A DNA stretch of 64,000 nt from an uncultured Actinomycetes bacterium. Lineage in GTDB: Bacteria; Actinomycetota; Thermoleophilia; Gaiellales; JAICJC01. The position numbers were made by a program, and so were the translations under genes. The stretch is from NCBI GenBank assembly GCA_963709425.1, contig CAVPWG010000002.1:65372-129371 (forward strand), in the 5' to 3' direction. Positions 9,780 to 47,195 of the stretch are shown here, piece by piece. The notes below the pieces were generated by a model. It did not search any database. It was not told the DNA's origin and saw only the letters and a list, made by a program, of their open reading frames with translations. Numbering within the stretch: the first letter of the stretch is position 1; every line of letters begins with the position of its first letter.

Positions 9780-10721
9780 GTGACCGATACGGCGGCTCAG
9801 GTCGGCTCCGAGACGGCCGCGAGCGACCGTGCCCGCTCGCGGAAGCGGGCGCCGGGCGAGCCGCGCAACGTCGCCTGGCTCTACATCCTGCCGGGCCTGC
9901 TCTTCTACGGGCTCTTCACGCTCGCGCCGCTCGCCCACACGGTGGAGCTCTCGTTCTTCGACTGGGACGGGCTCACCGTCGGCCACTACATCGGCCTGGC
10001 CAACTACCGGGAGGCATTCTCCGACCCGCTGGTGCGGGACTCGTTCAAGCACTCGGCAGAGCTGATCGTCTTCTACGCACTCCTGCCGGTGGCGCTCGGC
10101 CTCCTCCTCACCGCCATCCTGACCCGCCACCCGGTGCGCGGCTTCACGTTCTACCGCACCGCCCTCTTCCTGCCGCAGATGATCGCGGGCGTGGTCGTGG
10201 CGCAGGCGTGGGTGTGGATCTACGCCGACAACGGGCCGCTCAACGAATTCCTGCGCGACATCGGCCTGGGCGCGCTGACGCGGCCGTGGCTGGGCGACTT
10301 CACCTGGGCCCTGCCCGCGGTGGGCGGGATCGGGACGTGGGTGACCTACGGCCTCTGCATGGTGCTCTTCATCGCCGGCGCCCAGAGCATCCCGTCGAGC
10401 CTCTACGACGCAGCCCGCGTCGACGGCGCCGGCGCCGTGCGCGAGTTCTTCGCCGTCACGCTGCCGGCGCTCCGAAACCAGGTCGTCGTCGCGTTCGTCC
10501 TGACCACGATCAACGCCCTGCGCAGCTTCGACATCATCTACAACACGACCAGCGGTGGCCCCGGCACGACGACGTACGTGCCGTCGTTCTACATGTACCG
10601 GAACGCGTTCGTGTTCAACCGGGTCGGCTACGCGGCCGCGATCGCCGTCATCCTCACCGCCGCGATCTTCACGCTCGCGGGGATCGTGCTCTACGTCAGC
10701 TCGCGGGGGGAGGAGGCGTGA
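9780..10721 (+). CDS. ABC sugar transporter permease (MalF/UgpA-like)
   Basis: The protein is polytopic, with the EAA-type loop DAARVDGAGAVREFFAVTLPALR. Confidence 0.85.
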   Translation: MTDTAAQVGSETAASDRARSRKRAPGEPRNVAWLYILPGLLFYGLFTLAPLAHTVELSFFDWDGLTVGHYIGLANYREAFSDPLVRDSFKHSAELIVFYALLPVALGLLLTAILTRHPVRGFTFYRTALFLPQMIAGVVVAQAWVWIYADNGPLNEFLRDIGLGALTRPWLGDFTWALPAVGGIGTWVTYGLCMVLFIAGAQSIPSSLYDAARVDGAGAVREFFAVTLPALRNQVVVAFVLTTINALRSFDIIYNTTSGGPGTTTYVPSFYMYRNAFVFNRVGYAAAIAVILTAAIFTLAGIVLYVSSRGEEA

Positions 10722-11548
10722 GCGCCACCCGGGTCGAGCGGGTCGTCACCTACACGGTGCTGGCGCTCTTTGCCGTCGGGGCCATCTACCCGGTGCTCTC
10801 GATCCTGTTCCTTGGGCTCCACACCAAGAACGACCTGGTGACGGGCTTCGCGTGGCCGACCGACCCCAGCCTCTCGAGCTTCCGGGCGGCCTGGACGGAG
10901 GGCGACTTCGGAACGGGCCTCAAGTCGAGCTTCATCGTGGCGGCCACGGTCACCGCGGTCTCCGCCGTGCTCTCCGTCGGCACCGGCTACGCCTTCGGCA
11001 CGATGCGCTTCCGCGGCGACCGCTGGCTCTTCGGGCTCTTCCTGCTCGGGATCATCTTCCCGTACGAGGCGACCGTGATCCCGCTCTACTACGACTTCCA
11101 GGACTTCGGCATCCTGAACACGTACTGGTCGCTGATCCTGCCGCAGATCGGCCAGTCGGTCGCGTTCGGCACGTTCTGGATGCGGGCCTTCTTCCGCTCC
11201 ACGCCGCCCGCGCTGGTGGAGGCCGCGCGGATGGACGGCGCATCGAGCTTCGGCGTGCTCGTCCGCGTTCTGCTCCCCCAGGCCCGCCCGGCGGTGCTCA
11301 CGCTGTGTGCGCTCGTCTTCACCTACACCTGGAACGAGTTTCTGCTCGCCCTGGTGCTCGTGAGCGGCGCACCGTCGAAGCAGACGGCGCCGCTCGGCCT
11401 CAGTTTCTTCGCGGGTGCCGTCCGGGCGGGCGACCCGACCAAGGTGGCGGCGGCGTCGGTGCTGGTGGCCGCGCCGATCGTGATCGTGTACATCTTCCTC
11501 CAGCGGCATTTCATCCGCGGGATGCTCGCAGGAGCGGTAAAGGGGTAA
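10718..11548 (+). CDS. ABC sugar transporter permease (MalG/UgpE-like)
   Basis: GTG 10718 overlaps the previous stop (GTGA). The loop EAARMDGASSFGVLVRVLLPQARP is present. The longer tracked ORF 10208.. is out of context upstream. Confidence 0.85.
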   Translation: MSATRVERVVTYTVLALFAVGAIYPVLSILFLGLHTKNDLVTGFAWPTDPSLSSFRAAWTEGDFGTGLKSSFIVAATVTAVSAVLSVGTGYAFGTMRFRGDRWLFGLFLLGIIFPYEATVIPLYYDFQDFGILNTYWSLILPQIGQSVAFGTFWMRAFFRSTPPALVEAARMDGASSFGVLVRVLLPQARPAVLTLCALVFTYTWNEFLLALVLVSGAPSKQTAPLGLSFFAGAVRAGDPTKVAAASVLVAAPIVIVYIFLQRHFIRGMLAGAVKG

Positions 11549-11559
11549 ACGGGTAGGCA

Positions 11560-12864
11560 GTGGCCCGGATCAAGCTGGCATACATCGGCGGAGGCTCGAC
11601 CCGCGGTGCGGGGACGATGGCCTCGTTCATCCACAACAACGGCGCCGAGTTCGACGGGTCGGAGGTCGTGCTGGTCGACCTCGACCCCGACCGGCTCGAG
11701 CTGATCCGGACGCTCGCCGAGAAGATGGCCCGCGCCCGCGGCGTCGACCTCACGATCACGGCCACCACCGACCGCAAGGCTGCCCTCCGCGACTGCGACG
11801 CCGTCCTCTCGTCGTTTCGCCCCGGCGGCTTCGGTGCCCGGGCCAAGGACGAGCGGATCCCGCTCGACCACGGCGTGATCGGCCAGGAGACGCAGGGGCC
11901 GGGTGGATTCTTCATGGCGCTCCGGGCGATCGCCGTCCTCAAGGACATCTGCGCGGAGATGGAGGAGGTCTGCCCGGACGCGTGGCTCTTCAACTACACG
12001 AACCCCGTGAACCTCGTGGCCGAGGCCGTGACGCACCACTCGCCGATCAAGTGCGTCTCGCTCTGCGAGGGGCCGATCTACTTCGTCGACCAGATGGCGG
12101 GATACGCCGAGCTCGACCCGGCCAGGCTCTCGGCGACGATGGTCGGGCTGAACCACGGCTGCTGGAGCGTCGAGCACACGTACGACGGCGAGGACGCGAT
12201 CCCGCACATCGAGGCGGCCTGGGAGCGGCGCCGCGACGACCCGCAGCTCTCGACGATGGGACGGCGCATCCTGCACCTCGGAGCGTCGATGGGCTCGATC
12301 CCCGCCGAGTACTTCATGTACTACTACTTCCGCGACGAGATCGTGAGCGAGCTCGCCGCCAAGCCCACGACCCGGGCCGAGGACATCATGGGCTGGGCGC
12401 CCGACTACTGGCGCCACTACGAGGAGCAGGCGCGGACCGACGACCCCCACCTCGACCCCGGCCACTCGCGCGGCGGCATCCACGAGCTCGAGCTCGCAAT
12501 CGACGTGATGGACGCGATCTTCAACGACAAGGACGAGGTGCACCCGGTCAACGTCCCGAACGCCGGCGGCGCGCTGGCCGGCTTTCCGGAGGACCTCGTC
12601 GTCGAGATCCAGGGGCGCTGCAACCGGGCGGGCATCGAGCCGCTCCCCGCGAAGCCGCTGCCTGCACACGTCCGCGGGCTGGTCGAGATGCTCGGGGAGT
12701 ACCAGGCGGTGGCGGCCGAGGCCGCGTGGTCGGGCGGGCGGCGCGACGCCGTGCGGGCGCTCGCCGCAAACCCGCTCGTGATGCGACTGGACCTGGCCGA
12801 GCAGCTCTACGACGAGCTCCTGGCAGCCCACCGGGACCTGCTTCCGGACCGTCTCGCGGCCTAG
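11560..12864 (+). CDS. Glycoside hydrolase family 4 (NAD/Mn-dependent glycosidase)
   Basis: KLAYIGGGSTRG is a Rossmann-type start. NYTNPVNLV and SLCEGP motifs are typical of GH4. Confidence 0.8.
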   Translation: MARIKLAYIGGGSTRGAGTMASFIHNNGAEFDGSEVVLVDLDPDRLELIRTLAEKMARARGVDLTITATTDRKAALRDCDAVLSSFRPGGFGARAKDERIPLDHGVIGQETQGPGGFFMALRAIAVLKDICAEMEEVCPDAWLFNYTNPVNLVAEAVTHHSPIKCVSLCEGPIYFVDQMAGYAELDPARLSATMVGLNHGCWSVEHTYDGEDAIPHIEAAWERRRDDPQLSTMGRRILHLGASMGSIPAEYFMYYYFRDEIVSELAAKPTTRAEDIMGWAPDYWRHYEEQARTDDPHLDPGHSRGGIHELELAIDVMDAIFNDKDEVHPVNVPNAGGALAGFPEDLVVEIQGRCNRAGIEPLPAKPLPAHVRGLVEMLGEYQAVAAEAAWSGGRRDAVRALAANPLVMRLDLAEQLYDELLAAHRDLLPDRLAA

Positions 12865-14020: not shown

Positions 14021-15238
14021 TCAACCGCCGACGGCGGCGCCTGTCTCCGGATCGAAGAAGTGCAGCTGCCCGGTGTCGACGGCGAGCGTCAGCGGCTCGC
14101 CCTCGCGGGCCGACGAGCGCGGGCTGACGCGGGCCACCCAGATGCAGCGGCGCTCGGCCGCGGCGGCCTCGAGGCCCTCCAGCACGTCCAGGCCGGTCTC
14201 GGCCGCAAGCTCCTTGATGTCCTCGGTCAGGACCGGCGCGGCGTCGAGTGCGAAGTGCACGAGCAGATCCGAGCCGAGCGCCTCGCACAGCTCGGGCACG
14301 ACATCGAGGCTGCGGCCCGGTGGTGCCTCGCGGGCGATGCTGACGTCCTCCATCGCCTCGGGCCGCACGCCGAGGATGACCGTGCGGCCGGCGTAGGCCC
14401 GGAGCGCCGGCCGGGCGGCGGCCGCCTCCGGGTCGACCGTGAGCCGGCAGCCGGCGAATTCGAGCGTGATCCCGGCCTCGCCGGCCTCGACGCGGGCCTC
14501 GACCATGTTCATCGCCGGCGAGCCGATGAAGCCGGCGACGAACAGGTTCGCGGGACGGTTGTAGAGCGCGTCGGGCGCGTCCCACTGCTGGAGGACGCCC
14601 CGCTTCATGACCGCGACCATGTCACCCATCGTCATCGCCTCGGTCTGGTCGTGGGTGACGTAGATCGTCGTCACGCCGAGGTCGCGCTGCGTCCGGCGAA
14701 GCTCGGAGCGCATCTGCACGCGCAGCTTGGCGTCGAGGTTCGAGAGCGGCTCGTCCATCAGGAACGCCTGCGGCTCGCGCACGATGGCGCGGCCCATCGC
14801 GACCCGCTGGCGCTGGCCGCCGGAGAGCTGTCCGGGCTTCTTGGCCAGGAGCTCCGAGAGCCCCAGCGTGCGGGCCACGTCGTCGACCCGCCGGCGCACG
14901 TCGGACTTGGGCATCCGCCGCAGCTTCAGGCTGAACGCCATGTTGTCGTAGACCGACATCTGCGGGTAGAGGGCGTAGTCCTGGAAGACCATCGCCAGAT
15001 CGCGATCCTTCGGCGAGACGTCGTTCACGACCCGGTCGCCGATCTGCACGGTGCCGGTGGTGATCGCCTCGAGGCCCGCCACGCATCGCAGAAGCGTCGT
15101 CTTGCCGCAGCCGGACGGCCCGACGAGAACGGCGAGCCGGCCGTCGGGGATCACGAGGTCGACCCCCGCGACGCCCTCCGTGCCGTCCGGGTACACCTTG
15201 CGGACGCGCTCCAGCACGATCTCCGCCACGGCGGCCAC
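14021..15238 (-). CDS. ABC sugar-import ATPase (MsiK/UgpC/MalK-like)
   Basis: GPSGCGKTT, LSGGQRQRVA and FLMDEPLSNLD are present, plus a C-terminal regulatory domain. The start is GTG 15238 or 15229. Confidence 0.85.
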   Translation of the reverse strand: MAAVAEIVLERVRKVYPDGTEGVAGVDLVIPDGRLAVLVGPSGCGKTTLLRCVAGLEAITTGTVQIGDRVVNDVSPKDRDLAMVFQDYALYPQMSVYDNMAFSLKLRRMPKSDVRRRVDDVARTLGLSELLAKKPGQLSGGQRQRVAMGRAIVREPQAFLMDEPLSNLDAKLRVQMRSELRRTQRDLGVTTIYVTHDQTEAMTMGDMVAVMKRGVLQQWDAPDALYNRPANLFVAGFIGSPAMNMVEARVEAGEAGITLEFAGCRLTVDPEAAAARPALRAYAGRTVILGVRPEAMEDVSIAREAPPGRSLDVVPELCEALGSDLLVHFALDAAPVLTEDIKELAAETGLDVLEGLEAAAAERRCIWVARVSPRSSAREGEPLTLAVDTGQLHFFDPETGAAVGG

Positions 15239-40903: not shown

Positions 40904-41531
40904 ATGACGCTTCGCGTGGTAGGAGCCGGACTGGGTCGAACCGGCACGCATTCGCTCAAGCTCGCCCTCGAGCAGCTGCTCGGCGGGCCCTGCTACCACA
41001 TGAGCGAGCTCATCGGCCGCGAGGACGACACCGCCGTGTGGGCGGCTGCGACTCGGGGCGACGACGTCGACTGGGCGTCGTTCCTGTCGGGGTTCTCCGC
41101 GACGGTGGACTGGCCGGCATGCGCGTTCTGGGAGGAAATCGAGTCGGCGGTGCCAGACGCCATCGTGTTGCTCTCGGTGCGCGAGTCGCCGGAGGCGTGG
41201 TGGACGAGCGTGGAGCGCACGATCCTCCAGGCCCTCCAGAAGACCGTGCCGTCCGACGACGAGGCGTGGACGAATCGCCGGCGGATGGTCATCTCGATGA
41301 TCGAGACCACGTTCACACCGGACTGGGCCGATCGCGATGCAGCCATCGCAGCGTACGAACGCCACAACGACCGCGTTCGCACGACGGTCGCTCCCGAGCG
41401 GCTGGTCGAGTGGCGGCCGGGCGACGGCTGGGAGCCGATCTGCGCGGCGCTGGGTCGTCGACGTCCCCGCCGAGCCGTTTCCGCACACGAACACCACCGC
41501 CGAGTTCCGCCAGAGCAGCGGCCTGGACTAG
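40904..41531 (+). pseudogene. Sulfotransferase-family protein, one frameshift near the 3' end
   Basis: GAGLGRTGTHSL is a PAPS-loop-like start. The frame of ORF 40904.. is good to ...WEPICAALG, then continues as VDVPAEPFPHTNTTAEFRQSSGLD in the frame of ORF 41337..41531. The junction is at 41452-41456. Confidence 0.65.
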
Positions 41532-41579
41532 ATGGTCGCCACCCGTATCGGGGTACGATTCTGTCGACGAGAGGAGGTG

Positions 41580-43535
41580 ATGGAGAGGATGCGAAAGCCA
41601 CTTACCCGGCTGACCGAGCCGATGGTCCGTGAGGACGGCGCACTGCGCCCCGCGACCTGGGACGAGGCCCTCGATCGGGCCGCCGACGGGTTCCGCGCGG
41701 CGGCTGCCGCCGGAGGCGCGAACGCGTTCGGGCTGTTCAGCTGCTCGAAGGCGTCGAACGAGATGAACTTCATGATGCAGAAGTTCGCCCGCGTCGTCAT
41801 GGGCTCGAACAACGTCGACAGCTGCAACCGGACTTGACACGCTCCCAGCGTCGTCGGTCTGGCGACAGTGTTCGGGGCCGGGGGCGGAACAAGCTCCTAC
41901 CAGGAGGTCGAGGAGACCGATGTGATCTTCCTGTGGGGGTCGAACGCCCGTGAAACCCATCCGATCTTCTTCCATCACGTCCTGAAGGCCGTGCATGCCG
42001 GCGCGCGCCTCTTCACCGTCGACCCGCGCCGCACCGGCTCGGCCCAGTGGGCGGACGCCTGGCTCGGCATCGACGTCGGCACCGACGTCGCCCTCTCCAA
42101 CACGATGGCGCGCGAGATCCTGCATGCCGGCCTCCACAACCGCGAGTTCATCGAGCGTGCGACGACCGGATTCGACGAGTACGCCGCCTCGGTCGAGCCG
42201 TGGACGCTCGAGCGGGGCGAGCTCGAGACCGGCGTGCCCGCCGAGGTGATCCGCGACGCCGCCCACGCCTACGCGCGCGCCGACCGGGCGATCATCTGCT
42301 GGACGCTCGGCATCACGGAGCACCACAACGCAGTCGACAACGTCTTCGCGCTCATCAACCTCGCGCTCCTCACCGGCCACGTCGGTCGCTACGGCTCGGG
42401 GGTGAACCCGCTGCGCGGACAGAACAACGTCCAGGGCGGCGGCGACATGGGCGCGATCCCGAACAAGCTCCCAGGCTTCCAGGACATCGAGCGCGACGAT
42501 GAGGCCCGGGCCAAGTTCGAGAAGGCCTGGGGCACGACGATCCCGCCCCGCTACGGCTGGCACCTGACGCAGATGTTCGAGGCGATGGACCGGGGCGAGC
42601 TGCGCACGCTCTACGTCGTCGGCGAGAACCCGGCCCAGTCGGAGGCCGACGCCAAGCACACGAAGAAGCTGCTCGAGGGGCTCGATCACCTGGTCGTGCA
42701 GGACATCTTCCTCACCAGGACCGCCGAGCTCGCCGACGTCGTCCTGCCTGCCTCGGCGAGCTGGTGCGAGGCCGAGGGCACCGTGACGAACAGCGAGCGC
42801 CGCGTCCAGCGGGTACGAAGGGCACTCGACCCGCCGGGCCAGGCCCGGGACGACATCGAGATCGTGTGCGACATCGCCAGCCGCATGGGGCACGACCTCG
42901 GCCCGCCCGACGCCGAGTCGGTCTGGACCGAGTTGCGCTCGCTCTCGCCGATGCACGCGGGCATGACCTATCCGCGGCTCGAGGCGCTCGGCGGGATCCA
43001 GTGGCCCTGCTGGGACGAGGAGCACTCCGGCGAGCTCTTCCTCCACGGCCGCCTGTGGGAGAGCCCGATCTCCGGCGATCCGGCGCCGTTCAACGTCGTC
43101 GAGCATGTGCCTCCCGTGGACAAGCTCTCGGACGAGTTCCCGATCCGGCTCACGACCGGTCGGCGGCTCGACTCATACAACACCGGCGTTCAGAGCGGTG
43201 GCTACCGCTCCCCGCTTCGGCGGCGCGAGTCGCTCGACCTGTCGCCCGAGGACTGCGAGCGGCTGGGTGTGGACGACGGCGAGCTGGTCAAGGTGACGTC
43301 GCGGCGGGGGTCGGTCTACGCCCCCGTCCGGATCGACCAGACCCTCCGCCCGGGCCTGGCGTTCATGACGCTCCACTTCCCCGACGAGGTCGAGACGAAC
43401 GTGCTCACGATCGACGCGACCGACCCCAAGTCGGGCACGGCCGAGTTCAAGGCGAGCGCGATTCGGGTCGACCGCCTCACCGACGCCGAGCGCGGCCTCG
43501 AGGCCGTGTCGCAGCTCGCGGTGCCGGCGAAGTAG
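41580..43535 (+). CDS. Formate dehydrogenase alpha, molybdopterin (Mo-bisPGD) part only; in-frame TGA 41835-41837 read as selenocysteine
   Basis: GAGGAGG precedes ATG 41580. ORF 41532..41837 ends ...SNNVDSCNRT-TGA and continues in the same frame as HAPSVVGLATVFGAGG (ORF 41868..43535). The motifs match the FdhF/FdsA family, including the C-terminal TGRRLDSYNTG...GTAEFKASAIRV. Confidence 0.8.
41850..41866 (+). promoter_or_regulatory. SECIS-like hairpin GUCGUC-GGUCU-GGCGAC, 12 nt after the UGA
   Basis: Folded by hand: a 6-bp stem including one G-U pair. GGUCUG sits at the same codon offset (+7/+8) as in the E. coli fdhF SECIS as I recall it. Confidence 0.55.
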
Positions 43536-45389
43536 ATGGATCTGAGGCTGGCAGATGCGCCGCCGACCGCGGCCGAGCGGGAGGCTGTCGACGGCGTGCT
43601 GGGAGCGCCCGTCTCGTCGTGGGAGGGAGCCGCTCGGGGCACCGACGGCCACGCCGCCCGCGGCGGTCACGCCGCGCGCGCGCAGCGGCATCTGCTGCTC
43701 CCGGTGCTCCACGAGGTCCAGAGCCGGGTCGGGTGGATCAGCCCGGCGGCGCTCGGATACGTGTGCCTGCGGCTCACGATCCCGCCGGCCGAGGCCTACG
43801 GCGTCGCGAGCTTCTACGCGCTCTTCGCACTCGAGCCACGCGCCCCGCTCGTGACCCACGTGTGCACCGACATCGCCTGCATGTGCCGCGGCGGGAACGA
43901 GCTCGTCGCCGAGCTGGAACGGACCGTCGGCCCGGCGGGCGAGCATCCCGGGAACGGCACGTCGATCTGGCTCGAGAGCCCATGCCTGGGGATGTGCGAG
44001 CGGGCGCCCGCCGCACTCGTTACGTCGGCCGGCGAGAACGCGCACGAGCACGAGATCGCCCCGGCCGCCGCGGCCGACATCGCCGCCGCGCTCGCGGGCG
44101 CCGCCGCGCCGGCGCCGCCGCCGCTGGTGGCGCAGGCGGACGAACCGTCGCTTCGGCTCCTGCGCAGGATCGGGCGGGTCGACCCGGCGAGCCTCGACAG
44201 CTACCGGGCCGCGGGCGGCTACGCGGCCCTGCGCGCGGCGATCGACATGGGCCCGGCGGGGGTCATCCGCGAGGTGACCGACTCGCGGCTCCTCGGCCGC
44301 GGCGGCGCCGCGTTCCCGACGGGCCGCAAGTGGGACGCGGTGGCGCGGAACCCGGTCCGGCCGCATTACCTCGTATGCAACGCCGACGAGTCGGAGCCGG
44401 GCACATTCAAGGACCGGATCGTGATCGAGAGCGACCCCTTCGCCCTCGTCGAGGCGATGACCATCGCCGGGCTCGCGACCGGCTGCGAGCAGGGGTACGT
44501 CTACCTCCGCGGCGAGTACCCGCTGGCGTGGCAGCGCCTGTCGGCGGCGATCGACGAGGCCCGCGCCCGCGGCCTTCTCGGCGACGACGTCATGGGATCC
44601 GGCGTCCGGTTCGACATCGAGCTGCGTAAGGGCGCGGGCGCCTACATCTGCGGCGAGGAGACCGCGCTCTTCAACTCGATCGAGGGCTACCGCGGCGAGC
44701 CGCGCTCGAAGCCGCCGTTCCCGGTCGACTCCGGCCTCTTCTCCAAACCGACCGTCGTCAACAACGTCGAGAGCCTGATCAACGTCCTCGACATCGTGCT
44801 CGGGGGCGGCGCGGCGTTCGCCGCGATCGGAACCGAGCAGTCGACCGGCACCCGTCTCTTCTGCCTCTCCGGCTGCGTCGAGCGGCCCGGCCTCTACGAG
44901 GCGCCGTTCGGGGTCAGGCTGGGGGACCTGCTCGAGATGGCCGGAGGCGTCGCCGGCGGGCGGCCGCTGCGGACGGTGCTCCTCGGCGGGGCGGCCGGCG
45001 GTTTCGTCGGGCCCGACCAGCTCGACCTCGAGCTCTCGTTCGAGGCCACCCGCGCTGCCGGCGCAACGCTCGGCTCGGGGGTCGTCATGGCCTTCGACGA
45101 CACCGTCGACCTCGTCCCGGTGCTGCTTCGGATCGCTGCCTTCTTCCGCGACGAGTCGTGCGGCCAGTGCGTGCCGTGCCGGGTCGGGACCGTGCGCCAG
45201 CAGGAGGCGCTGCTGCGCCTCGCATCCGAGCGGCCGCGGGGGACTGTCGCCGACGAGCTGGCACTCCTCGACGAGATCGCCCGGGCGATGCGCGACGCCT
45301 CGATCTGCGGCCTCGGCCAGACCGCGGCCAACGCCGTCGACTCGGCGATCCGCGTGCTGCGCGTCTTCGAGCCGGAGGCTGCGGGATGA
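43536..45389 (+). CDS. Fused NuoE-like (2Fe-2S) / NuoF-like (FMN, NAD, 4Fe-4S) diaphorase subunit
   Basis: The N-terminal part has FYALF...CTDIACMC...CLGMC. The C-terminal part has GRGGAAFPTGRKW, CNADESEPGTFKDR, YICGEETAL and ESCGQCVPCRVG. Confidence 0.85.
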   Translation: MDLRLADAPPTAAEREAVDGVLGAPVSSWEGAARGTDGHAARGGHAARAQRHLLLPVLHEVQSRVGWISPAALGYVCLRLTIPPAEAYGVASFYALFALEPRAPLVTHVCTDIACMCRGGNELVAELERTVGPAGEHPGNGTSIWLESPCLGMCERAPAALVTSAGENAHEHEIAPAAAADIAAALAGAAAPAPPPLVAQADEPSLRLLRRIGRVDPASLDSYRAAGGYAALRAAIDMGPAGVIREVTDSRLLGRGGAAFPTGRKWDAVARNPVRPHYLVCNADESEPGTFKDRIVIESDPFALVEAMTIAGLATGCEQGYVYLRGEYPLAWQRLSAAIDEARARGLLGDDVMGSGVRFDIELRKGAGAYICGEETALFNSIEGYRGEPRSKPPFPVDSGLFSKPTVVNNVESLINVLDIVLGGGAAFAAIGTEQSTGTRLFCLSGCVERPGLYEAPFGVRLGDLLEMAGGVAGGRPLRTVLLGGAAGGFVGPDQLDLELSFEATRAAGATLGSGVVMAFDDTVDLVPVLLRIAAFFRDESCGQCVPCRVGTVRQQEALLRLASERPRGTVADELALLDEIARAMRDASICGLGQTAANAVDSAIRVLRVFEPEAAG

Positions 45390-46336
45390 GCGCCGTCCCC
45401 GTCACGATCCGCCGCACCGTCGAGGTCCAGATCGACGGCGAGGCGGTCCGCGTCGCCGAGGGCGCCACGATCCTCGACGCCTGCCGGGCCCGCGGCCTCG
45501 ACATCCCGACCCTGTGCTTCGGCGAGACGCTGACGCCGGTGAACGCATGCCGCGTGTGCGTCGTCGAGGTGGAGGGGTCGCGCGTGCTCGTGCCGTCGTG
45601 CGCGCGGCAGGCCGAGGACGGGATGGTCGTCCGTACCCGTAGCGAGCGGGTCGACCACAGCCGCAAGATGGTGCTCGAGTTCCTCGGGTCAAGCGTGGAT
45701 CTCTCGACGACCGACCACGTCGAGCGCTGGAACGGCGAGTACGGCGCCGCGCCCGAGCGCTACGGCCCGCCCGCGCCGCCGGCCCCCGCCGGCGCCCGCG
45801 ACCGCGCCCGGGCCGGCCACCATCACGCCGGAGACGGCCAGACCGCGGCGACCGTGGCCCAGCCGGTGAAGGTCGACAACGAGAACTACGTCCGCGACTA
45901 CTCGAAGTGCATTCTCTGCTACAAGTGCGTCGAGGGCTGCGGCACCGACTGGCAGAACACGTTCGCAATCGCCGTCGCCGGCCGCGGGTTCGACGCCCGG
46001 ATCGCAACGGAGTTCGCCGCGCCGCTGCCGGACTCCGCGTGCGTCTACTGCGGGAACTGCATCGCCGTCTGCCCGACCGGGGCGCTCATGTTCAAGAGCG
46101 AGCACGACATGCGCCAATCGGGTGAGTGGGACGAGACGGCGCAGACCGTGACCGAGACGATCTGCTCGTACTGCGGCGTCGGCTGCAGCCTCGAGTTGCA
46201 CGTGCAGGACAATGACATCGTGAAGGTCACCTCTCCGCTCGACGACGGCGTGACGCACGGCAACCTGTGCATCAAGGGCCGGTTCGGGTTCCAGTACGTG
46301 CAGAACCGCCCGCCCGAGGCGCCCGATGGCGCATGA
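45386..46336 (+). CDS. Formate dehydrogenase alpha, N-terminal Fe-S part (2Fe-2S, two 4Fe-4S ferredoxin motifs, Mo-bisPGD 4Fe-4S cap)
   Basis: ATGA overlap with the previous gene. LCFGETLTPVNACRVCVVEV, CILCYKCVEGC, CVYCGNCIAVCP and CSYCGVGCSL...GNLCIKGRFG are present. The protein ends where the Mo-domain protein begins in unsplit homologues. Confidence 0.8.
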   Translation: MSAVPVTIRRTVEVQIDGEAVRVAEGATILDACRARGLDIPTLCFGETLTPVNACRVCVVEVEGSRVLVPSCARQAEDGMVVRTRSERVDHSRKMVLEFLGSSVDLSTTDHVERWNGEYGAAPERYGPPAPPAPAGARDRARAGHHHAGDGQTAATVAQPVKVDNENYVRDYSKCILCYKCVEGCGTDWQNTFAIAVAGRGFDARIATEFAAPLPDSACVYCGNCIAVCPTGALMFKSEHDMRQSGEWDETAQTVTETICSYCGVGCSLELHVQDNDIVKVTSPLDDGVTHGNLCIKGRFGFQYVQNRPPEAPDGA

Positions 46337-47195
46337 CCCGGACGAGGACGTCGGCAGGATGCTCGACGCACCCGCGCGACCTACGAGCACCAGTCGCGTC
46401 CGCGTCCTGAACGTCCGGGACGGCGCCCGCAGCCGACGGTCTGACCGGCTCGCGACTGAGGAGCCGATGGAGATCCGCGTCGACGAGCCGGGCGGCGCCC
46501 AGCGCACCGTCGCGGTGACGATGCGGACGCCGGGGCACGACTTCGAGCTCGCCGCCGGCTTTCTCTTCACGGAGGGGATCATCGGCCCGGCGGACCTCCG
46601 CGGCGTTCGCTACTGCGACGTCCCCCGTGAGGAGCAGCACTACAACGTCGTCACCGTGGCGGTGGGTCGGCCGCTGCCGGATCTCGCAGCTCGCAGCTTT
46701 TACACCACGTCGAGCTGCGGCGTCTGCGGAAAGGCGTCGCTCGAGGCGCTCGACGTCCAATGCGCGCCGGTGGCACCCGGGCCGGTCGTCGAGCCGGAGC
46801 TCCTCACCTCGCTCCCGGACGAGCTGCGCCGCGTGCAGCGGGTCTTCGACCGCACCGGCGGCCTGCACGCCGCGGCGCTGTTCGACGCCGACGGGGCGCT
46901 GCGGAGCTCGCGTGAGGACGTCGGCCGCCACAACGCCGTGGACAAGGTCGTCGGGGCCGAGCTGATGGCCGGATCCCTGCCGCTGTCGGACCGCGTCCTT
47001 CTCGTCTCGGGGCGGGCCAGCTTCGAGATCGTCCAGAAGGCCGCGGTGGCCGGCATCCCGATCGTCTGCGCCGTCTCGGCCCCGTCCAGCCTGGCGGTCG
47101 ACGCCGCGCGCCGGTTCGGGGTCACGCTGGTGGGCTTCCTCCGCGAGCAGCGGTTCAACGTCTACACCCACTCCGAGCGCATCGCCGGCTCGTAA
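46326..47195 (+). CDS. fdhD: Formate dehydrogenase accessory sulfurtransferase FdhD
   Basis: MRTPGHDFELAAGFLFTEGI, SSCGVCGKAS, GGLHAAALF and VGRHNAVDKVVG are present. Confidence 0.85.
   Translation: MAHDPDEDVGRMLDAPARPTSTSRVRVLNVRDGARSRRSDRLATEEPMEIRVDEPGGAQRTVAVTMRTPGHDFELAAGFLFTEGIIGPADLRGVRYCDVPREEQHYNVVTVAVGRPLPDLAARSFYTTSSCGVCGKASLEALDVQCAPVAPGPVVEPELLTSLPDELRRVQRVFDRTGGLHAAALFDADGALRSSREDVGRHNAVDKVVGAELMAGSLPLSDRVLLVSGRASFEIVQKAAVAGIPIVCAVSAPSSLAVDAARRFGVTLVGFLREQRFNVYTHSERIAGS

What the first reader, a model, noticed from the sequence alone, without database searches (positions are those of the whole stretch)
41835..41866. In-frame TGA at the Mo-ligand position of formate dehydrogenase, with a SECIS-like hairpin
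The Mo-domain gene reads ...NNVDSCNRT-TGA-HAPSVVGLATVFGAGG in one continuous frame; the track splits it into 41532..41837 and 41868..43535. The TGA aligns with the Cys/Sec that ligates Mo in the FdhF/FdhA family (C-x-R-x-[U/C]-H-x-P-S). Twelve nt downstream, GUCGUC-GGUCU-GGCGAC can form a 6-bp stem. Its GGUCUG lies at the same codon offset as in the E. coli fdhF SECIS (UGA CAC GGC CCA UCG GUU GCA GGU CUG..., from memory). This implies the organism has selA, selB, selC and selD. None is in the window.
Basis: partly seen in the sequence, partly recalled or inferred. Interest (0 to 1): 0.7.

Follow-up and report, generated by a model that had tools for sequence, protein, structure and literature searches.

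The report
Selenocysteine codon in formate dehydrogenase
The in-frame TGA is a genuine selenocysteine codon with its own small RNA hairpin signal inside a soil actinobacterial formate dehydrogenase gene, which is a textbook kind of recoding that gene callers wrongly split into two genes.

Summary
TGA 41835-41837 lies in frame in the Mo/W catalytic gene of a formate dehydrogenase (41589..43535), at the position of Sec140 in E. coli FdhH.

- All 167 related loci fetched, from at least eight phyla, keep TGA there. The protein sequence is conserved on both sides of it, and no start codon is conserved after it.
- Short-read soil assemblies show no variant at the TGA.
It has C:G to G:C compensatory changes at several places in the tree. 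Its synonymous sites are frozen: GGT is used 85 of 85 times.
- GGUCUG sits at the same nucleotides as in the E. coli fdhF SECIS, checked directly.
- selD, selA, selB and tRNA-Sec lie beside the orthologous operon in eight loci. One of these is a Gaiellaceae-like contig whose FDH is 85% identical to the window's.
- No sel gene is in the window. I could not test whether the window's own genome has them.

The enzyme also differs from the canonical form. Its alpha subunit is split and the gene order is permuted (Mo part, NuoE/F fusion, Fe-S part, FdhD).

This is a new member of a known kind, of modest interest.

The parts
41589..43535 (+). Coding sequence of the Mo/W-bis-PGD catalytic subunit of formate dehydrogenase, read through the UGA. 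It is 648 aa with Sec at residue 83. An alternative start at ATG 41580 would put Sec at residue 86. The stop is TAG 43533-43535. The protein lacks the N-terminal Fe4S4 domain.
   Evidence: Pfam Molybdopterin and Molydop_binding domains. TIGR01591 Fdh-alpha profile positions 52-672, 643 bits. The best PDB relatives are FdhF-type FDHs. The start is inferred from the GAGAGGAGG motif at 41569-41577 and from gene calls in L001-L004.
41835..41837 (+). UGA selenocysteine codon, the Mo/W ligand position in the motif C-N-R-T-U-H-A-P-S.
   Evidence: In frame. TGA in 168 of 168 related loci. Aligns with TGA codon 140 of E. coli fdhF and with TGC/TGT in haloarchaeal Cys-type fdhF. No variant in four soil metagenome runs.
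41850..41866 (+). SECIS apical hairpin. The stem is 41850-41855 paired with 41861-41866 (G:C, U:A, C:G, G:C, U:G, C:G). The loop GGUCU is 41856-41860. Counting from the U of UGA, G23 and U24 are in the loop.
   Evidence: 100% of cells paired. C:G to G:C in 9 sequences, U:G to C:G in 15, U:A to U:G in 12, none broken. The same stem is chosen by RNAalifold. 1008 of 1008 cells paired in 168 loci; loop GGUCU in 166 and GGGCU in 2. Third-position entropy is 0 at codons +6, +7 and +8.
41841..41878 (+). Possible extended stem below the apical hairpin in this sequence only (38 nt, -15.8 kcal/mol).
   Evidence: Fold. Covariation does not support it: pairs at synonymous sites are unpaired in 34-35 of 83 sequences, and the pairs that hold lie at positions fixed by the amino acids.
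43536..45389 (+). NuoE-NuoF fusion (617 aa), the predicted FMN/NAD(H)-binding diaphorase module. Its ATG follows the FDH stop directly, and its own stop is TGA 45387-45389.
   Evidence: Pfam 2Fe-2S_thioredx, Complex1_51K, SLBB and NADH_4Fe-4S. NCBIfam nuoF_fam and nuoE_fam. Junctions.
45386..46336 (+). Fe-S subunit (316 aa) with 2Fe-2S, two 4Fe-4S and the Molybdop_Fe4S4 domain. This is the N-terminal part of a canonical FDH alpha subunit, encoded as a separate gene after nuoEF. It has an ATGA overlap with nuoEF and its stop is TGA 46334-46336.
   Evidence: Pfam Fer2_4, Fer4 and Molybdop_Fe4S4. Its C-terminus matches TIGR01591 positions 1-50. Translation. The order Mo, NuoEF, Fe-S is kept in about 78 of 84 loci.
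46326..47195 (+). FdhD, the accessory sulfurtransferase for the FDH cofactor (289 aa).
   Evidence: Pfam FdhD-NarQ. NCBIfam NF001943, 314 bits against a cutoff of 269.

Best explanation
UGA 41835-41837 is decoded as selenocysteine, the residue that ligates Mo or W in the catalytic subunit of a soluble, NuoE/F-linked formate dehydrogenase.

Proposed mechanism, inferred from the established bacterial pathway. When the ribosome reaches the UGA, the 12-nt spacer lies in the mRNA channel. The 17-nt hairpin GUCGUC-GGUCU-GGCGAC stands just outside the channel. Its loop, with G23 and U24, is bound by the C-terminal domain of SelB carrying Sec-tRNA(Sec). SelB delivers Sec to the A site in place of release factor 2. 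The product is a single 648-aa selenoprotein, not an 82-aa fragment plus a 555-aa protein.

Shown here: the UGA is conserved, the reading frame is continuous and under selection on both sides of it, the RNA hairpin is under selection, and sel genes are physically linked to the same operon in relatives.

Inferred, not shown: SelB binding, Se incorporation, and the presence of selABCD in this particular genome.
For: (1) TGA is kept in all 84 loci from long ENA contigs and GTDB species representatives, and in all 80 JGI metagenome loci. These have 69-97% protein identity and are labelled Gaiellales, Solirubrobacterales, Chloroflexota, Gemmatimonadota, Acidobacteriota, Dormibacterota, Planctomycetota, Myxococcota and others.
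(2) All 120 best database homologues are 537-558 aa, so they are cut at the same place by gene callers.
(3) The amino acids upstream of the TGA are conserved while third positions vary, for example entropy 1.65 bits at codon -2. This is one frame under purifying selection across the stop.
(4) The supposed downstream start codon is not conserved as a start.
(5) The hairpin is 100% paired. It shows C:G to G:C double changes with no single-change intermediate, at three or more separate places on an NJ tree. RNAalifold finds the same stem.
(6) Synonymous sites are frozen. Gly +7 is GGT in 85 of 85 sequences, whereas the other Gly codons end in T in 5-23 of 85.
(7) GGUCUG occupies the same nucleotides (22-27) as in the E. 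coli fdhF SECIS.
(8) Cys-type homologues have TGC/TGT, GGC CTC or GCG CTC at those codons, and no hairpin (-1.7 and -3.6 kcal/mol, with different pairing).
(9) TGA is an ordinary stop for two genes of the same operon, so the code is not reassigned.
(10) tRNA-Sec and/or selA, selB and selD lie within 10 kb of the orthologous operon in L023, L044, L045, L059, L075, L076, L084 and L097. The nearest relatives of L097's SelA are named Gaiellaceae SelA by NCBI.
(11) The hairpin meets the published bSECIS model (PMC13188914, read) on loop size, stem length, G in the first two loop positions, and an 18-nt spacing.
(12) No variant at the TGA or in the hairpin in four soil metagenome runs.
Against: No sel gene or tRNA-Sec is in the 64-kb window. 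I could not show them on the same contig as the FDH in the window's closest relatives. No SelA hit shares a contig with the 0.98-, 1.43- or 3.58-Mb FDH contigs. Thirteen Gaiellales-like FDH loci have no sel gene within 10 kb.

On the single sequence the fold is not better than shuffles, and the MFE prefers a competing hairpin that uses the 5' arm. The isolated 17-nt hairpin has -6.8 kcal/mol, just short of the -7.5 used by the consensus model. The lower stem that brings it to -15.8 is not supported by covariation.

There is no Rfam match. The bulged U17 that I recall as important in E. coli (not checked here) is paired in this element. There is no direct evidence of selenium in the protein.
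Confidence: 0.93

Rival explanations
1. The TGA is an inactivating nonsense mutation and the FDH gene is a pseudogene remnant. The upstream sulfotransferase frameshift would suggest a decaying region.
For: The window does carry a frameshift 380 nt upstream, in the sulfotransferase gene. The FDH gene also lacks the usual N-terminal Fe-S domains.
Against: TGA is at the same codon in 168 of 168 loci across phyla, with purifying selection on both sides. The frameshift is a 1-nt insertion that short-read contigs of three runs lack, so it is an assembly error. The missing Fe-S domains are encoded intact two genes downstream, and this arrangement is conserved.
Confidence: 0.01
2. The TGA is a sequencing or assembly error, and the true codon is TGC or TGT (Cys).
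For: The window has at least one indel error. Related long-read assemblies show broken genes (L089).
Against: Contigs from four independent short-read soil metagenome runs show no variant at 41835-41837, at depths up to about 1100. The 167 independent assemblies from different projects all read TGA.
Confidence: 0.005
3. It is a real gene boundary. An 82-aa N-terminal polypeptide and a 555-aa C-terminal polypeptide are made separately and assemble. This enzyme is already split elsewhere.
For: The alpha subunit of this family is indeed split after the Fe4S4 domain. ORF finders and gene callers report two ORFs.
Against: The downstream 'start' (GTG 41868) is Val codon +11. In relatives it is GTA, GTC, GTT, GCG, GCA or ATT, so there is no conserved initiator. 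The 30 nt between the two ORFs encode the invariant HAPSVVGLA in frame. The metal-ligating residue would be absent from both pieces. The conserved hairpin would then have no explanation.
Confidence: 0.01
4. The UGA is read through without the Sec pathway, by near-cognate tRNA that inserts Cys or Trp, or it is read as Cys when selenium is scarce. The hairpin would only slow termination.
For: Sec machinery was not shown in this genome. From my own knowledge, not tested here, a stable hairpin after a stop codon can promote read-through in other systems.
Against: The loop sequence GGUCU is conserved in 166 of 168 loci, and its distance from the UGA matches the SelB-binding loop of E. coli fdhF. 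A purely thermodynamic roadblock would not need an invariant loop. sel islands lie next to the operon in eight relatives. No Cys-codon variant occurs among 168 loci, which argues that Cys is not equivalent here.
Confidence: 0.03

Closest known systems
E. coli formate dehydrogenase H (fdhF, Sec140) and its SECIS
   Same: The UGA is at the homologous position and the motif is C-x-R-x-U-H-x-P-S. GGU CUG falls at codons +7 and +8, so G23 and U24 are in the apical loop at the same distance from the UGA. The catalytic fold is the same (PDB 1aa6, E 3.6e-138).
   Different: The apical loop is 5 nt (GGUCU) closed by C:G, rather than GGUC closed by A:U. U17 is paired rather than bulged. The protein has no Fe4S4 domain of its own. 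Its partners are a NuoE/F diaphorase and a NuoG-like Fe-S protein, not hydrogenase 3. A covariance model of this family's element does not pick up the E. coli element at E <= 10.
NAD+-dependent FdsGBA(D)-type formate dehydrogenases (Rhodobacter capsulatus, PDB 6tg9/6tga; Cupriavidus)
   Same: They have NuoE-like, NuoF-like and NuoG-like Fe-S modules, a bis-PGD catalytic domain and an FdhD-type sulfurtransferase. The plasmid-borne fdhF genes of Cupriavidus and haloarchaea show the same set of modules.
   Different: The haloarchaeal homologues checked use Cys (TGC/TGT) and have no hairpin. In the Cupriavidus and Haloferax homologues the alpha subunit is one polypeptide, with gene order NuoF then alpha; Halomicrococcus has a separate 2Fe-2S protein between NuoF and fdhF. 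Here the Mo part comes first, NuoE and NuoF are fused, and the Fe-S part of alpha is a separate last gene.
Mycobacterial Sec machinery with FDH as the single selenoprotein (PMC13449736)
   Same: Both are Actinomycetota in which a formate dehydrogenase is the selenoprotein and selC sits beside selA-selB. That paper also proposes horizontal transfer. L023 and L097 show comparable sel clusters.
   Different: That paper illustrates fdoG-type FDH genes next to the sel genes and SECIS stem-loops with bulges. Here the enzyme is a cytoplasmic FdhF/Fds-type with a split alpha subunit and a bulge-free 17-nt core.
Consensus bacterial SECIS model (bSECISearch model as summarised in PMC13188914)
   Same: The loop is 5 nt (3-9 allowed), the upper stem is 6 bp (4-16 allowed), GG occupies the first two loop positions, and 18 nt lie between the UGA and the loop (16-37 allowed).
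   Different: The conserved core alone gives -6.8 kcal/mol, slightly weaker than the model's -7.5 threshold. Only with a non-conserved lower stem does this sequence reach -15.8.

Membership tests
Selenocysteine-containing FdhA/FdhF (TIGR01591 Fdh-alpha; motif UHxP) | In-frame UGA at the position of the Mo/W-ligating Sec or Cys | tested here: met
   It aligns with TGA codon 140 of E. coli fdhF and with Cys codons in Haloferax and Halomicrococcus fdhF. TGA in 168 of 168 relatives.
Selenocysteine-containing FdhA/FdhF (TIGR01591 Fdh-alpha; motif UHxP) | U-H-x-P motif (Table 1 of PMC13188914), with the neighbouring catalytic His | tested here: met
   The sequence reads T-U-H-A-P-S. The motif was read. 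HAPS is invariant in the 85 aligned loci. The second catalytic residue (Arg in ...NPLRGQNNVQG) is conserved in the alignment to PDB 7qv7. Its identity with E. coli Arg333 is from memory.
Selenocysteine-containing FdhA/FdhF (TIGR01591 Fdh-alpha; motif UHxP) | Score at or above the curated equivalog cutoff (666.25 bits) | tested here: inconclusive
   The Mo protein scores 643.4 bits over profile positions 52-672. The missing positions 1-50 match the C-terminus of the separate Fe-S protein (49.2 bits). The simple sum exceeds the cutoff, but no single polypeptide does.
Selenocysteine-containing FdhA/FdhF (TIGR01591 Fdh-alpha; motif UHxP) | N-terminal Fe4S4 domain on the same polypeptide as the Mo domain | tested here: not met
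   Molybdop_Fe4S4 is found only in the gene at 45386-46336. This split is conserved in relatives.
Selenocysteine-containing FdhA/FdhF (TIGR01591 Fdh-alpha; motif UHxP) | Selenium actually present in the protein | not testable with these tools
   Needs 75Se labelling or mass spectrometry.
Bacterial SECIS element | Stem-loop immediately downstream of the UGA, with a 3-9 nt apical loop, a 4-16 bp upper stem and G in the first two loop positions | tested here: met
   6-bp stem with loop GGUCU. Criteria from PMC13188914.
Bacterial SECIS element | 16-37 nt between the UGA and the apical loop | tested here: met
   18 nt: a 12-nt spacer plus the 6-nt 5' arm. The offset is the same as in E. coli fdhF.
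Bacterial SECIS element | MFE <= -7.5 kcal/mol | tested here: inconclusive
   -6.8 for the conserved 17-nt core. -15.8 for 41841-41878 in this sequence, but the added pairs are not conserved.
Bacterial SECIS element | Structure maintained by selection (covariation, synonymous constraint) | tested here: met
   100% paired, with 9 double changes and 27 single compatible changes; 0 of 500 shuffles reach the observed covariation score. 1008 of 1008 cells paired in 168 loci. Third-position entropy is 0 at codons +6 to +8.
Bacterial SECIS element | Binding by SelB and dependence of read-through on the hairpin | not testable with these tools
   Needs a binding assay or reporter fusions.
Sec-decoding trait (selA, selB, selC, selD in the same genome) | All four genes present in the organism that carries the UGA | not testable with these tools
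   They are absent from the 64-kb window. They are present beside the orthologous operon in eight related loci, including Gaiellaceae-like L097. SelA is named in Gaiellaceae MAGs. No same-contig link was found for the window's nearest relatives.
NAD-linked Fds-type formate dehydrogenase complex | NuoE-like, NuoF-like and NuoG-like Fe-S modules and FdhD encoded with the catalytic subunit | tested here: met
   Pfam and NCBIfam hits for 43536-45389, 45386-46336 and 46326-47195. NAD(H) as the actual partner is inferred from the NuoF module and was not tested.

The most novel reading that the evidence does not exclude
The window belongs to a clade of soluble, NuoE/F-linked formate dehydrogenases that I did not find described in three full-text paper searches. 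Every one of the 168 members fetched uses Sec and none uses Cys. The clade is defined by a split and permuted alpha subunit, with gene order Mo part, NuoE/F fusion, Fe-S part. It is also defined by an almost invariant 17-nt SECIS that has no bulged U. The clade is found in soil Actinomycetota, Chloroflexota, Acidobacteriota, Gemmatimonadota and other phyla. This spread suggests horizontal transfer of the operon, sometimes together with a sel island, and a SelB recognition rule (loop GGUCU at +22) shared across phyla.
Probability: 0.45. Interest if true: 0.45.

Novelty: new member of a known kind. Interest (0 to 1): 0.3.

Why it matters
In practice this is an annotation correction. The two ORFs 41532..41837 and 41868..43535 are one selenoprotein gene, and the same mis-split affects all 120 best database homologues.

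Biologically, it indicates that this Gaiellales-like soil bacterium needs selenium for formate oxidation or CO2 reduction. The same Sec-dependent operon turned up in soil metagenomes and in MAGs assigned to many phyla.

The 168-sequence comparison gives an unusually clean natural mutagenesis of a minimal bacterial SECIS: 6 pairs always kept, and the loop GGUCU almost invariant. This could guide SelB-SECIS specificity studies and Sec-aware gene callers.

None of this changes current understanding of Sec decoding.

Tried and rejected
- **Single-sequence folding of 41835-41900 and 41835-41875.** Not significant, and the MFE picks a competing hairpin. It is uninformative at 70% GC.
- **Rfam, at gathering and E-value thresholds.** Nothing at the site.
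- **A longer SECIS with a lower stem (41841-41878).** It is stable in this sequence but rejected as a conserved feature, because pairs at synonymous sites are broken in about 40% of sequences.
- **An extended block of about 130 nt of nucleotide conservation after the TGA.** This was seen among five close relatives. With 13 Gaiellales-like sequences only codons 0 to +14 are unusually conserved, so I rejected it.
- **A covariance model of the element.** The only strong hit in the window is the site itself, so there is no second SECIS of this kind in the 64 kb. The model does not detect the E. coli fdhF element. Coding homology dominates it, so it adds little.
- **Linking sel genes to the window's own lineage.** I checked 10-kb flanks of seven FDH contigs of close relatives and found no sel genes. 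I also matched contig lengths between SelA hits and FDH hits. There was no match to the contigs of the closest relatives; the two lengths that did coincide (10,084 and 17,499 bp) were not informative, the first being a different contig with an FdnGHI-like FDH and the second not looked up.
- **Sequencing runs.** Only soil metagenomes hold the stretch, so read-level tests cannot assign sel genes to this genome.
- **Papers.** The Gaiella occulta genome paper mentions a formate dehydrogenase but nothing on selenium. Three full-text searches found no description of this split, permuted operon.
Full report
**What is in the sequence**

The window has 70% GC. From ATG 41532 (more likely start: ATG 41589, or 41580) to TAG 43533-43535 there is one reading frame with a single internal stop, TGA 41835-41837. 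It sits in the context ...NNVDSCNRT-TGA-HAPSVVGLATVFGAGGGT. A mechanical ORF list splits this frame into 41532..41837 and 41868..43535.

The read-through protein has the Molybdopterin and Molydop_binding domains. It matches the formate dehydrogenase alpha equivalog TIGR01591 over profile positions 52-672. Its best solved relatives are FdhF-type enzymes: T. kivui HDCR FdhF, a methanogen Fdh, E. coli FdhH and R. capsulatus FdsA.

Twelve nucleotides after the TGA lie GUCGUC (41850-41855), GGUCU (41856-41860) and GGCGAC (41861-41866).

**Is it more than chance?**

On this sequence alone, no. Folds of 41835-41900 and 41835-41875 are no better than dinucleotide shuffles (z -1.27 and -0.27). The minimum-energy structure uses a competing hairpin. 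Rfam gives nothing. The decision had to come from comparison with relatives.

**The TGA is conserved and the frame is continuous**

- All 120 best homologues in the protein database (82-100% identity) are 537-558 aa and cover only 81-83% of the read-through query. Gene callers cut them all at the same place.
- I fetched DNA for seven of them, 80 species-representative genomes and 80 JGI metagenome contigs.
- All 168 sequences, the window included, have TGA at this codon.
- The record titles name Gaiellales and Thermoleophilia for the closest genomes (79-93% identity). At 69-76% identity they name Solirubrobacterales, Chloroflexota, Gemmatimonadota, Acidobacteriota, Dormibacterota, Isosphaeraceae, Myxococcales and others.
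- Upstream of the TGA the amino acids are conserved while third codon positions vary freely. That is purifying selection on one frame that runs across the stop.
- The GTG that ORF finders take as the start of the downstream ORF is Val codon +11. In other members it is GTA, GTC, GTT, GCG, GCA or ATT, so there is no conserved initiator and no real gene boundary.
- Logan contigs of four soil metagenome runs show no alternative base at 41835-41837 or in the hairpin. They do show ordinary synonymous variants at 41834 and 41843.
- TGA is the normal stop of two other genes of the operon (45387-45389 and 46334-46336), so the code is not reassigned.

**The hairpin is under selection**

- Pair 3 switches from C:G to G:C in nine sequences (GTC...GCG becomes GTG...GCC), and no single-change intermediate occurs.
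- Pair 5 goes from U:G to C:G in 15 sequences. Pair 2 goes from U:A to U:G in 12.
- Sliding the 3' partner by one to three columns destroys the pairing.
- RNAalifold, run without any hint, returns the same stem.
- On a neighbour-joining tree of the proteins, the G:C state appears at three or more separate places.
- With the JGI loci added, 1008 of 1008 cells are paired. Further compatible variants appear (U:G to U:A, G:C to G:U). The loop is GGUCU in 166 sequences and GGGCU in 2.
- Synonymous sites inside the element are frozen. Third-position entropy is 0 at codons +6, +7 and +8. Gly +7 is GGT in 85 of 85, whereas the five other invariant Gly codons nearby end in T in only 5-23 of 85.
- Two Cys-type homologues taken from plasmids as a control (Haloferax volcanii pHV3 and Halomicrococcus) have TGC and TGT at the position. 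At codons +7 and +8 they have GCG CTC or GGC CTC, and they have no equivalent hairpin.
- A longer lower stem makes the window's own element more stable (-15.8 kcal/mol over 41841-41878). Covariation does not support it.
- An apparent 130-nt block of nucleotide conservation among five close relatives disappears with 13 sequences.

**Comparison with the E. coli element, done directly**

The K-12 fdhF gene has TGA at codon 140 followed by CAC GGC CCA TCG GTT GCA GGT CTG. GGU CUG therefore occupies nucleotides 22-27, counted from the U of UGA, in both genes, and G23 and U24 are in the apical loop in both. From my own knowledge, not tested here, G23, U24 and a bulged U17 are the bases SelB needs in E. 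coli. In this family U17 is paired (with A or G), and the loop is five nucleotides closed by C:G.

The element meets the published consensus model for bacterial SECIS on loop size, stem length, G at the start of the loop and spacing (18 nt). The core alone is -6.8 kcal/mol, against the model's -7.5.

**Sec machinery**

The window holds four ordinary tRNAs and no tRNA-Sec. tblastn with E. coli SelA, SelB and SelD finds nothing in it.

Among the relatives, tRNA-Sec lies within 10 kb of the operon in L023, L044, L059, L075, L076 and L084. selA, selB and selD are beside it in most of them, and selD alone is found in L045. In L023 (Solirubrobacterales), selD, tRNA-Sec, selA and selB sit directly upstream of the FDH gene.

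The most relevant case is the JGI contig L097. Its FDH is 85% identical to the window's, and its operon is the same through fdhD. It then carries selD (9894-10943, minus strand), selA (10962-12260), selB (to 13987) and tRNA-Sec (14163-14254). Several of the relatives of its SelA at 75-80% identity are named 'L-seryl-tRNA(Sec) selenium transferase [Gaiellaceae bacterium]' by NCBI.

So the trait exists in the order to which the window's closest relatives are assigned, and it is physically linked to this operon. I could not show that the window's own genome, or the long contigs of its nearest relatives, carry these genes. No SelA hit shares a contig with them, and the only sequencing runs that hold the stretch are soil metagenomes.

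**What the enzyme is**

The operon is:
- the Mo/W catalytic gene (41589-43535);
- a NuoE-NuoF fusion (43536-45389);
- an Fe-S protein with 2Fe-2S, two 4Fe-4S and the Molybdop_Fe4S4 domain (45386-46336);
- FdhD (46326-47195).

The Fe-S protein ends where a canonical FdhF Fe4S4 domain ends and matches TIGR01591 positions 1-50. The catalytic protein starts at position 52. The usual alpha subunit is thus cut after its first cluster domain, and the two parts are encoded in permuted order.

This order is kept in about 78 of 84 loci. The Cys-type homologues examined have NuoF followed by an unsplit alpha subunit, or NuoF, a 2Fe-2S protein, then alpha. By analogy with Fds-type enzymes, the complex should couple formate/CO2 to NAD(P)+/NAD(P)H. 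That is an inference from the domains.

**Known or new**

FdhA is the most widespread bacterial selenoprotein and is often the only one in a genome (PMC13188914). Sec-dependent FDH with selABCD is documented in Actinomycetota for mycobacteria (PMC13449736). The finding is therefore a new member of a known kind, and its main practical value is as an annotation correction.

Three things are less ordinary. The split, permuted operon is conserved. No Cys variant occurs among the 168 members fetched. The minimal, bulge-free SECIS is nearly invariant across phyla. Three full-text searches turned up no description of these features, but that search was not exhaustive.

**Verdict**

I put the confidence that this UGA encodes selenocysteine through a SelB-bound SECIS at 0.93. 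Interest is 0.3.

Noticed in passing
window 40904-41531, insertion at about 41457: The Sulfotransfer_4 gene just upstream of the FDH gene is frameshifted in the window. Contigs of three short-read soil runs lack one base at 41457. Removing that base restores an intact 208-aa protein that is 79% identical to the one in L002. It is most likely a long-read assembly indel, not a pseudogene.
   Followed up: yes
window 41589-43535 and 45386-46336: The FDH alpha subunit is split after the Fe4S4 domain. The two parts are encoded in permuted order (Mo part, NuoE/F fusion, Fe-S part). TIGR01591 positions 1-50 and 52-672 fall in different genes. The order is conserved in about 78 of 84 loci across phyla, whereas Cys-type homologues have NuoF followed by an unsplit alpha subunit.
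   Followed up: partly
window 41803-41895: In four soil metagenome runs the contig word-depth rises to 500-1100 over the TGA/SECIS segment, against roughly 5-50 on either side. This stretch is so conserved across taxa that contigs of many different community members pile up on it.
   Followed up: partly
L023 5748-9872; L097 9894-14254: Compact 'Sec islands' sit directly beside the FDH operon. In L023 (Solirubrobacterales) the genes selD, tRNA-Sec, selA and selB lie upstream on the opposite strand. In L097 (Gaiellaceae-like) selD is divergent from selA, selB and tRNA-Sec, just after fdhD.
   Followed up: yes
L001 11674-14478: In the closest long contig (FDH 97% identical), the NuoE/F gene and the Fe-S gene are called as one 934-aa fusion. 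This could be a real fusion or an indel in a long-read assembly.
   Followed up: no
JGI sample 3300047160, 10,084-bp contig carrying SelA P0159 (no DNA available): A SelA 76% identical to that of L097 lies next to selD, a selB-like gene, fdhD and a different, FdnGHI-like FDH (an 846-aa Mo subunit, a 4Fe-4S subunit and an NrfD-like membrane subunit). Gaiellaceae-like bacteria may therefore have a second Sec-linked FDH.
   Followed up: no
two of the JGI loci L094-L173 (loop variant seen): Two sequences have the loop GGGCU instead of GGUCU, so the loop U24 recalled as essential in E. coli is G. Both keep the TGA and all six stem pairs. I did not record which loci they are.
   Followed up: no
L089 12221-14465: In this long-read ENA contig the nuoEF and Fe-S genes are broken into several short ORFs. 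This looks like indel noise of the same kind as in the window's sulfotransferase gene. Split genes in this data set should be read with care.
   Followed up: no
L004 13126-13198; L033 10916-11005: ARAGORN calls tRNA-Glu(ctc) and tRNA-Gly(gcc) inside the nuoF and FDH coding regions of these GC-rich loci. They are probably false positives.
   Followed up: no
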